The translations under genes were made by a program, and so were the position numbers. DNA of 64,000 bases from a virus (Duplodnaviria; Caudoviricetes), in the IMG/VR virus record IMGVR_UViG_3300042539_001740; one strand, given 5' to 3'. The notes under the pieces are model-generated. The model did not search any database. It was given only the letters and a program-made list of their open reading frames with translations, and had not been told where the DNA came from. Every line of letters starts with the position of its first letter. The first letter of the stretch is position 1. This document shows, piece after piece, positions 30,427 to 40,672 of the stretch.

Positions 30427-30510
30427 CAAATATTTTCCCAAAAATATTCATCAAAGGTTGTGTAATTAAAAATCTATTTCTATATTTGTGAACACTTAAA
30501 CGGAAACACA

Positions 30511-30741: not shown

Positions 30742-30823
30742 TTGTGACACCTAATAATTCACAAGTAGTGGCTGACACTTAGATTGTTGCCTGACGTTAA
30801 GGTTTTGAATAGGAAAACCGAAA
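30742..30823 (+). ncRNA. Candidate structured RNA with GGTTTT-GAATAGG-AAAACC-GAAA module
   Basis: TTGTGA/TCACAA hairpin; module shared with 31851-31877. Confidence 0.4.
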
Positions 30824-30838
30824 AGTTTAAACAAACAA

Positions 30839-30919
30839 AGTCAGGTGGCAGAATTGGAGCTGCCAAGATGAGGTACACATCTGCGTTTATCGTCACAAGT
30901 TCGAATCCTGTCCTGACTA
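30839..30919 (+). tRNA. Aberrant tRNA-like RNA (Tyr-like GUA in loop AGGUACA, no U33)
   Basis: AGTCAGG/CCTGACT, GCAG/CTGC, AGATG/CATCT, T-loop TTCGAAT. Confidence 0.6.
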
Positions 30920-30951
30920 CTAACTTATTTAAAAAAATAAAAATTATAAAT

Positions 30952-31332
30952 ATGGAAAATATAATTTTAGAAGTAGGTAAAACTTACAAGAGTAGAGATG
31001 GTAGATTAGTAAAAATTATCAAGGGTAATCCACCAATAGAAGGGAAAAGAGATGGATGGGATGGAATTTATTTTGGTAAAAGCATTGACAATAAAAAACC
31101 AAAAATAGACCATGAAAGATATGTTTTTGATGGAAAGTGGTGGTCTTATATTTCTGACTTTTCAATGTTTGGTTATCAAGAATTATCTGACCCAGAAATG
31201 GATTTGGTGGAAGTCGTAAAAACAAAAGAAAAAAAAATAAAAGAAAAAAAAGGAAAAGAAAAAAATAAAAAAAAAAGAAAAAAAAAATTGACAAAAATTA
31301 ATATAAATAAAAGTTTACAACAATGGCACTAA
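30952..31332 (+). CDS. Hypothetical protein; 3' end runs into a low-complexity A tract
   Basis: MENIILEVGKTYKSRDG; likely start 30952 rather than 30784. Confidence 0.55.
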   Translation: MENIILEVGKTYKSRDGRLVKIIKGNPPIEGKRDGWDGIYFGKSIDNKKPKIDHERYVFDGKWWSYISDFSMFGYQELSDPEMDLVEVVKTKEKKIKEKKGKEKNKKKRKKKLTKININKSLQQWH

Positions 31333-31583
31333 TATATCTTATAGTAGATAGGGAAGATAAAATCCCAGTACTAACTGCAACGACAGTTGAAAAGGTCAAA
31401 CAACTCTTGGATGAGTATATGGGATTACCACCCTACTTTGAAGATAAGGATGTTGAATACTTGGGTTATTTTCCTTATGATAGTAGTTATCCCGACATAT
31501 ATGAGGGAACTTACAAGTATAGATATGGTGATGAAATACAAGAGTTCGGTTTGTATTGTATGGAAATAGATGCACTGAATTAA
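31323..31583 (+). CDS. Hypothetical protein
   Basis: Acidic, Tyr-rich ORF. Confidence 0.6.
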   Translation: MALIYLIVDREDKIPVLTATTVEKVKQLLDEYMGLPPYFEDKDVEYLGYFPYDSSYPDIYEGTYKYRYGDEIQEFGLYCMEIDALN

Positions 31584-31588
31584 AATTT

Positions 31589-31695
31589 AGCCAGGTGGCG
31601 GAATGGTAGACGCTATATGTTTTGGAAGGAGATAGGAATAGAACCTACCCTAAACCAGATAAAAGATTTTACAGGTTCGAATCCTGTCCTGACTA
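31589..31695 (+). tRNA. Aberrant Leu-like tRNA with greatly extended anticodon arm (loop AAUAGAA)
   Basis: Leu-type D arm GTGGCGGAATGGTAGACGC; ~50-nt arm tipped by TAGG-aaTAGaa-CCTA; 3' end identical to the 30839 RNA. Confidence 0.6.
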
Positions 31696-31696
31696 C

Positions 31697-31908
31697 AATG
31701 AGTAAGAGATACTCAGCAGTCTTTGGTTCAAGACTCATTTAACAATGAACTCGTTCAAATCGGACAACGGAATGCCGATTCTTAGGGTTAAAGGCGGCAG
31801 CACACCCCCTCCTTCGTATGTGTGACTTTTTTCAGTGGGGATGCCCAACAGGTTTTTTGAATAGGAAAAAACCGAAATAACTACTCACCAGTAATCTCAA
31901 GGTGGGGA
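31697..31908 (+). ncRNA. ~210-nt multi-hairpin RNA with possible pseudoknot
   Basis: AATGAGT/ACTCATT, AGTCTT/AAGACT, AATCGG/CCGATT, CACAC/GTGTG with CCCC-GGGG, GAATAGG hairpin, CACC/GGTG; no ORF. Confidence 0.55.
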
Positions 31909-31914
31909 AATTAT

Positions 31915-31988
31915 GCACCCATAGCTCAGCTGGATAGAGCAACTGCCTTCTAAGCAGTAGGTCTTTGGTTCGAATCCAAATGGGTGTA
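31915..31988 (+). tRNA. tRNA-Arg(UCU)
   Basis: ACTGC-ctTCTaa-GCAGT. Confidence 0.93.
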
Positions 31989-32002
31989 CTAAAACAAAAA
32001 TT

Positions 32003-40250: not shown

Positions 40251-40291
40251 CAACAAACCCCTCCTAAAAAGAGGGGTTTATTTTTTTCTGC

Positions 40292-40672
40292 GGTGGAGGT
40301 ATAGGGAGTCGAACCCTTTCCTGTCCATCTTAACTATTAAGGACTACATGCTTAGGACAACATTATTCGCAGTGCTCCGAGCTATTTGATTTTAATTACT
40401 ACCAAAACCAACAAAATCAGCCAATTCATTTTTAGGGATGAGAATTAGTTAGACAACCCTTCAGTGCTCCTGTTCCTGAGTTAATGCACCCCGACTCGAA
40501 AGTAATATCCTATTGACTAGGCTACTACCGCTTCTTCAGCACGGATTAAACCTACTGCAGAAAGTTTGTTGATAACGTTGCCGTGTATCGTTTCAAACCA
40601 GTTTAACGGACTTAGTTCAGGTCCGGCATGCCCCGAATAACTAACAACGTCAGTCGATTCCAGATTACCCCC
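40292..40672 (-). ncRNA. ssrA: tmRNA; tag (A)GNVINKLSAVGLIRAEEAVVA*
   Basis: 5' GGGGGTAATCTGGAATCGAC; 3' T-arm GGTTCGACTCCC and acceptor TACCTCC-A-CC; G3:U70; tag ORF 40582-40517. Confidence 0.92.

What the first reader, a model, noticed from the sequence alone, without database searches (positions are those of the whole stretch)
30742..31908. Repeated GAATAGG-loop hairpin plus GAAA module and a 210-nt pseudoknotted RNA
Seen: GGTTTT-GAATAGG-AAAACC-GAAA (30801-30823) and GGTTTTTT-GAATAGG-AAAAAACC-GAAA (31851-31877). The T and A runs change length together while the loop is invariant, which supports pairing. The second copy lies in an ORF-free GC-rich stretch (31697-31908) with at least six stems and a possible H-type pseudoknot. 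The two modules bracket the aberrant tRNAs. Known: large ncRNAs such as GOLLD and ROOL occur in phage tRNA arrays, but this is much shorter and I cannot match it to either.
Basis: partly seen in the sequence, partly recalled or inferred. Interest (0 to 1): 0.6.

Follow-up and report, generated by a model that had tools for sequence, protein, structure and literature searches.

The report
Clamped triple-pseudoknot RNA in phage tRNA array
The flagged 210-base stretch is a real gene for a tightly folded RNA of unknown function that many uncultured lake phages keep wedged exactly between their tRNA genes; the repeated AU hairpin is one helix of it and also occurs in a separate, unrelated conserved spacer upstream.

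Summary
The generalised module occurs twice in 64 kb against 0.01 expected.

**Second module (window 31696-31914, +).** It lies in a ~219-nt RNA of a large family absent from Rfam 15. I collected 126 distinct full-length members from IMG/VR and metagenome contigs. There was one hit in 185,579 prokaryote genomes and none in 50,697 GenBank phage records.

- Covariation supports eight helices, three consecutive H-type pseudoknots and a pairing between the first and last hairpin loops. 84.8% of cells pair, against 36-48% when partners are slid, and 48 of 60 pairs show compensatory changes.
Its stem is kept, but its loop is not invariant: 2 of 126 members have GAATAGG.
- The RNA abuts a tRNA or tRNA look-alike on both sides, so excision by tRNA-processing enzymes is inferred.
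- Function is unknown. My best guess is a stable trans-acting RNA.

**First module (30742-30838).** It belongs to a different, narrowly distributed conserved spacer that shares only the hairpin module.

This scan found the same family earlier on other genomes (e1-5391329, e1-5391333). My independent analysis agrees with those notes.

The parts
31696..31914 (+). Whole ~219-nt structured RNA ('element 2'), from the base after the upstream tRNA-like gene to the base before tRNA-Arg
   Evidence: An nhmmer profile of 57 relatives matches 31696-31911 at E=2.4e-59. The family alignments are A2 and A4.
31699..31715 (+). P1 hairpin (31699-31704 with 31710-31715), loop AGAGA
   Evidence: 98.5% of cells paired and 5 of 6 pairs have compensatory changes. 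Variants seen: GGATA/TATCC, GAATA/TATTC, AAGTA/TACTT, GTGTA/TACAC, GGGTG/CACCC.
31706..31709 (+). P1-loop half (GAGA) of the loop-loop pairing with 31895-31898 (TCTC) in the P8 loop
   Evidence: 94.6% of cells paired and all four pairs show changes on both sides. Independent swaps: GGAA/UUCC in L064, GGGA/UCCC in L091, ACAGC/GCUGU in L086, GGC/GCC in L103.
31718..31751 (+). Pseudoknot 1. P2 is 31718-31723 with 31730-31735. The P2 loop 31725-31729 pairs with 31747-31751. The crossing strand CAUUUAACAAU is near-invariant.
   Evidence: P2 is 99.9% paired with two compensatory events. PK1 is 94.6% paired with all 5 pairs covarying, for example GGUUC/GAAC, AUCC/GGAU, ACCU/AGGU and GUCC/GGAC.
31752..31780 (+). 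Pseudoknot 2, variable in sequence. S1 is 31752-31755 with 31766-31769; S2 is 31758-31763 with 31775-31780.
   Evidence: A per-sequence search for crossing helices scored a mean of 24.5 against 18.7 for shuffles. The same topology is built from many different helix sequences. S1 is 80.6% paired and S2 about 69% on the MAFFT alignment, with many double changes.
31784..31824 (+). P4 (31784-31786 with 31811-31813) encloses the AAUAAAG-like junction and the P5 hairpin (31793-31797 with 31805-31809). The P5 loop 31801-31804 pairs with 31821-31824 (pseudoknot 3).
   Evidence: P4 is 85-96% paired with all 3 pairs covarying. PK3 is kept with different sequences: CACAC/GUGUG, GACCUA/UAGGUU, GGUUC/GAACU, GACAC/GUGUU. 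P5 and PK3 columns are poorly aligned by MAFFT (64% and 54% paired).
31836..31847 (+). P6 hairpin (31836-31839 with 31844-31847), loop GAUG; some relatives have GUAAGA
   Evidence: 76.6% of cells paired and all 4 pairs have double changes, for example GAGG/CCUC, GGA/UCC, GCA/UGC and GUG/CAC.
31851..31877 (+).
   Evidence: 90.4% of cells paired. The loop varies, with more than 35 versions. 69 of 126 members fit GGTTT..AAACCGAWA.
31884..31906 (+). P8 hairpin (31884-31889 with 31901-31906), loop AGUAAUCUCAA
   Evidence: 92.2% of cells paired and 5 of 6 pairs have compensatory changes.
31589..31695 (+). Upstream tRNA look-alike with a 47-nt insert. It supplies the 5' processing boundary.
   Evidence: Rfam tRNA at 34.4 bits; ARAGORN does not call it. 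In other members a canonical tRNA sits in this position.
31915..31989 (+). tRNA-Arg(UCU). It supplies the 3' processing boundary.
   Evidence: ARAGORN and Rfam at 70.4 bits.
30742..30838 (+). 'Element 1': a separate conserved non-coding spacer after the 75-aa ORF.
   Evidence: 83-87% identical among relatives, whereas the upstream ORF is 58-71% identical. The 19-mer anchor matched 10 IMG/VR stretches (7 contigs once the window's three near-identical relatives are counted), and two metagenome loci carry the module as well. It is not a member of the element 2 family.

Best explanation
Window 31696-31914 (+) encodes one member of a large, uncatalogued family of ~215-nt phage non-coding RNAs.

**Shown here**
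- The RNA folds into eight helices. These include three successive H-type pseudoknots (PK1, PK2, PK3).
- The loop of the first hairpin (GAGA) pairs with the loop of the last (UCUC).

**Inferred from gene layout**
- The RNA is transcribed with the tRNA array and cut out by the host's tRNA-processing enzymes. An RNase Z-type cut after the upstream tRNA or tRNA look-alike would make its 5' end. An RNase P cut before the downstream tRNA would make its 3' end. The product would be a stable free RNA of about 219 nt.

**Guess (about 30-35% on its own)**
- It acts in trans during infection as a compact, nuclease-resistant RNA. It would bind and divert a host or phage component of the translation or tRNA machinery, or of a defence system.
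- The near-invariant single-stranded junctions (CAUUUAACAAU, AAUAAAG, UUGACUUUUU, GAAAUAACUAC) would be the contact or core-forming surfaces.

**Element 1 (30742-30838)**
- It is a different element: a conserved spacer between two small phage ORFs. It shares only a P7-like hairpin-CCGAAA module, possibly because the same factor binds both.
For: **Family size and distribution**
- Scans returned 52, 77 and 110 matching stretches. These yielded 126 distinct full-length members.
- The family is essentially phage-only: one hit in 185,579 species genomes, on a 1.5-kb MAG contig.

**Fold**
- 84.8% of cells are paired, against 36-48% with slid partners.
- 48 of 60 pairs have compensatory changes.
- The covariation score is 0.288 against 0.144, and 0 of 500 shuffles reached it (the same picture on 57 sequences).
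- The loop-loop pairing switches together in four lineages.
- PK2 and PK3 are kept with many different sequences.

**Processing layout**
- 68 of 121 upstream flanks have a canonical tRNA, of 14 different amino-acid identities, ending at the first base of the RNA.
- 39 of the other 53 upstream flanks have a T-arm-like motif in that position.
- 81 of 126 downstream flanks have a canonical tRNA starting right after the RNA.

**Trans-acting rather than tied to a neighbour**
- The tRNA neighbours change, loci nearly always hold a single copy, and there is no conserved adjacent protein.

**Shared module**
- The expectation is 0.01 matches per window.
- The local alignment scores 34, against a maximum of 28 in shuffles.
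- In 1.45 Mb of related phage DNA, the strict module variant ending in an extra A matched 20 times, never inside the family RNA. 19 matches are element 1 relatives.
Against: - No expression or end-mapping data exist, so excision and stability are inferred from layout alone.
- Function is entirely unsupported by homology. There is no Rfam hit, no relation to T4 rnaC or rnaD, and no linked protein.
- A few members lack a tRNA on one side, for example L101 and L138.
- P5, PK3 and PK2 pair poorly on the MAFFT alignment (54-69%). Their support rests partly on per-sequence searches, whose shuffle tests are only moderate: 33 of 57 and 31 of 126 sequences pass.
- The covariation cannot say whether the loop-loop pairing forms within one molecule or between molecules.
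- The sequences were collected with anchors in P1, P2 and PK1, so conservation there is partly by construction.
Confidence: 0.75

Rival explanations
1. The P1 and P8 loops pair between molecules rather than within one.
For: The 4-5-nt loop complementarity covaries, exactly as the pRNA loops do (my own knowledge of pRNA). ROOL and GOLLD also sit near phage tRNAs and oligomerise through kissing loops (PMC12286853, listed).
Against: Covariation is equally expected for an intramolecular clamp. There is no sequence or Rfam relation to pRNA, ROOL or GOLLD. At 215 nt the RNA is far smaller than ROOL or GOLLD.
Confidence: 0.15
2. The RNA is a ribozyme. It would either self-cleave at one of its borders to free the neighbouring tRNAs or act on tRNA precursors.
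For: The fold is complex, with several pseudoknots and near-invariant junction nucleotides, as in glmS, HDV-like or twister ribozymes. The position exactly between tRNAs would suit a processing role.
Against: No match to any Rfam ribozyme or RNase P model at E<=10 or at E<=1 in nine other members. The helix order does not fit HDV-like, hatchet, twister or hammerhead cores by inspection. Host RNase P and RNase Z already explain both borders.
Confidence: 0.1
3. The element works only in cis. It would be a structured spacer that insulates, paces or protects processing of the tRNA-array transcript and would have no function once released.
For: It always lies inside tRNA arrays on the tRNA strand. 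Phage arrays hold other structured spacers too (earlier scan notes; a near-threshold freshwater-1 hit in L103).
Against: 215 nt with three pseudoknots, a covarying long-range loop pairing and invariant junctions far exceeds what a spacer needs. Loci nearly always hold one copy, although arrays have many tRNA junctions. The neighbouring tRNAs are not conserved.
Confidence: 0.1
4. For element 1 (30742-30838): it is a regulatory leader or intergenic signal of the small-ORF operon (75-aa and 86-aa ORFs). Its P7-like hairpin-CCGAAA module mimics the binding site of a factor that also binds the big RNA, in the manner of ribosomal-protein feedback.
For: - It is 83-87% identical, against 58-71% for the adjacent ORF.
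- It always lies between homologues of the same two ORFs, about 20-35 nt before the second start codon in most relatives.
- One covarying pair is seen: GGC..GCC becomes GGU..ACC.
- The module similarity is significant.
Against: - There is only one covarying pair and few independent lineages.
- The hairpin's top pair is lost in several relatives (GGTTTG...).
- Four element-1 contigs show no element 2 by BLAST, although they are only 15-48% complete.
- No factor is known.
- It could instead be a DNA-level signal: the repeats GGTTGTGACAC and GGTTGACAC look like protein-binding sites.
Confidence: 0.3
5. The stretch is decayed tRNA or intron debris, or a chance GC-rich spacer with no function.
For: Single-sequence folding energy is no better than that of shuffles.
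Against: There are 126 distinct homologues with compensatory changes in 48 of 60 pairs. The profile match in the window is E=2.4e-59.
Confidence: 0.01

Closest known systems
Phage T4 small stable RNAs, species 1 (rnaC, 139 nt) and species 2 (rnaD, 119 nt)
   Same: They are non-tRNA stable RNAs encoded inside a phage tRNA cluster, on the tRNA strand and butted against tRNA genes (annotation). They are presumably released by the same processing. Their function is, to my knowledge, still unknown.
   Different: There is no sequence relation: nhmmer with two family profiles finds nothing at E<=100 in the T4 region. They differ in size. No triple-pseudoknot fold is known for them.
ROOL and GOLLD RNAs (Rfam; PMC12286853, PMC5737381)
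   Same: They are ornate orphan RNAs, often in phages or prophages and often next to tRNA genes. Kissing-loop contacts matter for their architecture.
   Different: They are roughly three to four times longer by my recollection and form multimeric cages. cmscan gives no match, even at E<=10. The helix plan is different.
phi29 prohead RNA (pRNA)
   Same: It is a phage RNA of 120-174 nt in which two loops with a 4-nt covarying complementarity pair with each other (my own knowledge).
   Different: pRNA loops pair between molecules on the packaging motor. pRNA is not in a tRNA array and has no pseudoknot string. There is no Rfam match here.
Pseudoknot strings of tmRNA and of dicistrovirus IGR IRES
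   Same: They have several H-type pseudoknots in a row within an RNA of about 200 nt that works on the ribosome. This is an analogy only.
   Different: There is no tRNA-like domain, no tag reading frame and no IRES context. The Rfam tmRNA model hits a different locus in this window, 40291-40672 on the minus strand, not this RNA.

Membership tests
Uncatalogued ~215-nt triple-pseudoknot RNA of phage tRNA arrays (this report; scan notes e1-5391329 and e1-5391333) | Full-length profile match to the family | tested here: met
   nhmmer with the A2 profile matches window 31696-31911 at E=2.4e-59, covering model positions 1-220.
Uncatalogued ~215-nt triple-pseudoknot RNA of phage tRNA arrays (this report; scan notes e1-5391329 and e1-5391333) | P1 hairpin loop complementary to the P8 hairpin loop | tested here: met
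   GAGA at 31706-31709 pairs with TCTC at 31895-31898. Family-wide 94.6% of cells are paired, with compensatory swaps.
Uncatalogued ~215-nt triple-pseudoknot RNA of phage tRNA arrays (this report; scan notes e1-5391329 and e1-5391333) | Three successive H-type pseudoknots, including PK1 with the crossing strand CAUUUAACAAU | tested here: met
   All helices can be drawn on the window sequence.
Uncatalogued ~215-nt triple-pseudoknot RNA of phage tRNA arrays (this report; scan notes e1-5391329 and e1-5391333) | Directly flanked by tRNA or tRNA-like genes on the same strand | tested here: met
   A tRNA-like gene ends at 31695 and tRNA-Arg starts at 31915.
Same family, applied to element 1 (30742-30838) | Profile or sequence similarity beyond the P7-like hairpin | tested here: not met
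   nhmmer finds only 30800-25 at E=5.7. 30742-30799 scores no better than 173 of 200 shuffles.
Any Rfam 15 family (GOLLD, ROOL, raiA, RNase P, tmRNA, self-cleaving ribozymes, riboswitches) | Covariance-model match | tested here: not met
   No hit on 31696-31914 or on 30742-30838 at the gathering threshold or at E<=10. No hit on the element in nine other members at E<=1.
T4 rnaC / rnaD | Sequence homology | tested here: not met
   nhmmer --max with the A2 and A4 profiles against T4 69000-75000 gives no hit at E<=100.
T4 rnaC / rnaD | Non-tRNA stable RNA encoded within and co-oriented with a phage tRNA cluster | tested here: met
   T4 annotation compared with the window layout. Stability of the window RNA is not testable here.
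   This needs an in vitro transcript assay. Only the lack of any Rfam ribozyme match is known.

The most novel reading that the evidence does not exclude
The RNA is a new functional class. The P7-type hairpin-CCGAAA module would be a portable binding site, reused in an mRNA leader (element 1) for feedback control.
Probability: 0.25. Interest if true: 0.85.

Novelty: new variant of a known kind. Interest (0 to 1): 0.68.

Why it matters
Complex-folded RNAs of this size are rare, and nearly every well-studied class turned out to be a ribozyme, a riboswitch or a core part of a ribonucleoprotein.

This family has a well-determined fold, well over a hundred distinct members, and a strict home in the tRNA arrays of large uncultured lake phages. 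No protein partner is linked to it. It therefore joins T4 species 1 and 2 RNAs, ROOL and GOLLD as orphan RNAs that phages carry alongside their tRNAs.

Because its ends are set by tRNA processing and its end loops carry a simple covarying code, it can be tested directly:
- transcribe it;
- ask whether it is a monomer or a ring;
- find what it binds;
- test whether it cleaves.

Knowing its role would bear on why large phages carry tRNA arrays at all.

Tried and rejected
1. **Element 1 as a truncated paralogue of the 3' half of the RNA.** It looked so by eye (CACAAGTAGTGGCTGAC against CCCAGTAGTGTTGAC). nhmmer and a shuffle-controlled local alignment rejected it.
2. **A long-range helix between the P1 5' strand (GAGUA) and the UACUC just before P8.** One lineage (L062 type) seemed to covary three ways. 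L081, L157, L166 and L201 change P1 without any change there, so it is rejected.
3. **RNAalifold's long-range GUC/GAC pairing (A1 columns 24-26 with 150-152) and a GUA/UAC pairing.** Both involve invariant bases and compete with P2 or P8. They cannot be tested. P2 has two compensatory events.
4. **A conserved protein neighbour.** The commonest is a PF04308 RNase H-like protein, present in only 15 of 60 distinct loci and at varying distances.
5. **Homologues in cultured phages or in bacteria.** None in 50,697 GenBank phage records. One MAG contig in 185,579 genomes.
6. **Homology to T4 rnaC or rnaD.** None.
7. **A full-length covariance model.** I used HMM profiles, MAFFT alignments and per-sequence pseudoknot searches instead.
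8. **Sigma-70-type promoter or terminator signals in the region.** No more than in shuffles.
9. **Single-stranded UGGN elements complementary to tRNA 3' ends (a lead from note e1-5380924).** The UGG runs here lie inside helices, by inspection only.
10. **Obligatory co-occurrence of element 1 and element 2.** Four element-1 contigs show no element 2, but all are incomplete.
Full report
**Observation.** Both modules are present as written: GGTTTT-GAATAGG-AAAACC-GAAA at 30801-30823 and GGTTTTTT-GAATAGG-AAAAAACC-GAAA at 31851-31877. The generalised module GGTTT-N5-16-AAACCGAWA occurs twice in the 64-kb window against 0.01 expected, and 0 of 100 shuffles reached two matches. The stretch 31697-31908 is ORF-free on the + strand. 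Its GC is 0.41-0.44 in a 0.25-0.33 background. The window is a phage-type tRNA array: ARAGORN finds 21 tRNAs, Rfam adds a few more, and there is a tmRNA on the other strand. No whole genome is held for it. Single-sequence folding gives no signal, with z-scores of -0.73 and -0.19. Everything below therefore rests on comparison with relatives.

**What the 210-nt stretch is.** Rfam 15 has nothing for it, even at E<=10.
- Three near-identical IMG/VR relatives and one diverged relative (L010) showed compensatory changes by eye, plus a 21-nt identical start.
- A scan with GAGTAAGAGATACTC-N15-40-TTTAACAA returned 52 viral stretches.
- A second anchor, AAGACTCATTTAACAAT, returned 77 stretches, seven of them chance hits in coding DNA.
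- A metagenome scan returned 110 stretches.
- An HMM profile found 181 full-length copies, of which 126 are distinct. They are aligned as A4.
- The same anchor gave one hit in one genome each of 185,579 prokaryote species, on a 1.5-kb MAG contig.
- blastn of the element against 50,697 GenBank phage records gave nothing.

The family is therefore large and, as far as I could see, confined to uncultured phages, mostly from lakes.

**Fold.** In window coordinates:

| Element | Strands | Note |
|---|---|---|
| P1 | 31699-31704 / 31710-31715 | loop AGAGA |
| P2 | 31718-31723 / 31730-31735 | |
| PK1 | P2 loop 31725-31729 / 31747-31751 | crossing strand CAUUUAACAAU is near-invariant |
| PK2 | S1 31752-31755 / 31766-31769; S2 31758-31763 / 31775-31780 | variable in sequence |
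| P4 | 31784-31786 / 31811-31813 | encloses P5 |
| P5 | 31793-31797 / 31805-31809 | |
| PK3 | P5 loop 31801-31804 / 31821-31824 | |
| P6 | 31836-31839 / 31844-31847 | |
| P8 | 31884-31889 / 31901-31906 | |
| Loop-loop pairing | P1 loop GAGA 31706-31709 / P8 loop UCUC 31895-31898 | |

On 126 distinct sequences, 84.8% of cells form standard pairs, against 36-48% when the 3' partners are slid. 48 of 60 pairs carry changes on both sides. The covariation score is 0.288 against 0.144 in shuffles, and 0 of 500 shuffles reached it. The 57-sequence alignment gave the same picture.

Paired cells per helix:

| Helix | Cells paired |
|---|---|
| P2 | 99.9% |
| P1 | 98.5% |
| PK1 | 94.6% |
| Loop-loop pairing | 94.6% |
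| P8 | 92.2% |
| P7 | 90.4% |
| P4 | 85% |

- P1 is rebuilt as GGAUA/UAUCC, GAAUA/UAUUC, AAGUA/UACUU, GUGUA/UACAC and GGGUG/CACCC.
- The loop-loop pairing switches together from GAGA/UCUC to GGAA/UUCC (L064), GGGA/UCCC (L091), ACAGC/GCUGU (L086) and GGC/GCC (L103).
- MAFFT aligns PK2, P5 and PK3 badly (54-69% paired). Per-sequence searches for crossing helices nevertheless find the same topology built from many different sequences. PK2 scores a mean of 24.5 against 18.7 in shuffles. PK3 appears as CACAC/GUGUG, GACCUA/UAGGUU, GGUUC/GAACU and GACAC/GUGUU.
- The anchors I used fix parts of P1, P2 and PK1, so conservation there is partly by construction. The second anchor freed P1 and the loops.

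**Context.**
- In 68 of 121 distinct members with enough upstream flank, a canonical tRNA ends at the first base of the RNA. Fourteen different amino-acid identities are represented.
- 39 of the other 53 have a T-arm-like motif there, as in this window. Here the neighbour is the tRNA look-alike 31589-31695.
- 81 of 126 have a canonical tRNA starting just after the RNA.
- Loci hold one copy, with one exception that has two (L200).
- No protein family travels with it. The commonest neighbour is a PF04308 RNase H-like protein, present in 15 of 60 distinct loci at varying distances.

From this layout I infer, but have not shown, that the RNA is transcribed with the array and released by RNase Z-type and RNase P cuts.

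It is P7. The stem is conserved and AU-rich, and 69 of 126 members fit GGTTT..AAACCGAWA. The loop has more than 35 versions, and only 2 of 126 are GAAUAGG. A loose AAnAG core recurs. Even the window's closest relatives read GAAUAGCAU. Loop invariance is therefore a feature of this one genome.

**Element 1 (30742-30838).**
- It is 83-87% identical among relatives, while the upstream 75-aa ORF is 58-71% identical.
- It always lies between homologues of that ORF and of the 86-aa ORF. Only in the window's lineage has a tRNA look-alike plus a 126-aa ORF been inserted after it.
- It shows one covarying pair: GGC..GCC becomes GGU..ACC.
- It is not a member of the big family. nhmmer finds only the hairpin, at E=5.7. 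Without the hairpin it resembles the family no better than 173 of 200 shuffles.
- The hairpin-CCGAAA module itself is significantly shared, scoring 34 against a shuffle maximum of 28.
- In 1.45 Mb of related phage DNA, a stricter variant of the module (ending in an extra A) matched 20 times and never inside the family RNA. Nineteen of those matches are element 1 relatives.
- Four element-1 contigs show no element 2, but they are only 15-48% complete.

A shared binding factor, or mimicry of P7 in an mRNA leader, is a possible reading. A DNA-level signal is another.

**How it may work.**
- Shown: a conserved, compact, pseudoknot-rich fold with paired end loops, phage-only, set in tRNA arrays.
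- Inferred: excision by tRNA-processing enzymes, giving a stable free RNA.
- Guessed: a trans-acting RNA that binds a component of translation, tRNA handling or host defence.
- Rivals: intermolecular loop pairing giving rings or cages as in pRNA, ROOL or GOLLD (0.15); a ribozyme (0.1); a purely cis-acting processing spacer (0.1); debris (refuted).

**Comparison with what is known.**
- The closest by context are T4 species 1 and 2 RNAs in the T4 tRNA cluster, but there is no sequence relation.
- ROOL and GOLLD share the tRNA-adjacent phage setting (PMC12286853) but are several times longer and do not match.
- Three literature searches found no description of this RNA.

**Earlier notes of this scan.** Notes e1-5391329 and e1-5391333 describe the same family on other genomes, with the same three-pseudoknot and end-loop reading. 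I reached that reading before seeing them, and my tests agree. What this report adds:
- the larger member set;
- the extra loop-pairing swaps;
- the rejection of a distal P1 pairing;
- the finding that P7 shares a module with an unrelated conserved spacer.

**Verdict.** The element is a new, well-supported RNA family of unknown function, not in Rfam 15 or in the papers I searched.

Noticed in passing
window 30839-30920 and 31589-31695; also loci such as L097, L131, L106, L081, L040: tRNA look-alikes of one type (5' AGTCAGGTGGC..., 3' ...GGTTCGAATCCTGTCCTGACTA, with large inserts in place of a normal anticodon arm) abut the triple-pseudoknot RNA on one side in about 24 of 127 distinct members. 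In L010 the T-arm covaries (ACAGG/CCTGT becomes ATAGG/CCTAT), while the acceptor stem has two mismatches.
   Followed up: partly
window 30839-31332: Compared with L010, L085, L092 and others, the window's lineage has an insertion of a tRNA look-alike plus a 126-aa ORF (30952-31332, with a very Lys-rich C-terminus encoded by a long A-run) between element 1 and the 86-aa ORF.
   Followed up: partly
window 30456-30488: A Bacteroidota-type promoter look-alike precedes the 75-aa ORF: TTG about 20 nt before TATATTTG at 30481-30488. The motif GGTTGTG recurs here and at the start of element 1 (GGTTGTGACAC, then GGCTGACAC), which suggests a repeated protein-binding site.
   Followed up: no
L103:803-864 (-): A near-threshold match to Rfam freshwater-1 RNA (RF02979, 67.6 bits against a gathering score of 72, E=3e-14) lies in the same tRNA array as a family member. 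This known orphan motif therefore also lives in these phage tRNA arrays.
   Followed up: no
L200:3-220 and L200:455-686: One metagenome contig carries two diverged copies of the triple-pseudoknot RNA about 235 nt apart. It is the only locus seen with more than one copy.
   Followed up: no
L039:1350-1940 and 14 other loci: A PF04308 (RNase H-like, DUF458) protein is the most frequent protein neighbour of the RNA. It occurs in 15 of 60 distinct loci, always on the same strand, at distances from about -5.8 to +5.7 kb.
   Followed up: partly
window 40291-40672 (-): A full-length tmRNA gene (Rfam 95.4 bits) lies on the strand opposite to the tRNA array.
   Followed up: no
L120 (TARA_R110000868 scaffold): At least one family member comes from a Tara Oceans scaffold, so the family is not strictly limited to fresh water.
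   Followed up: no
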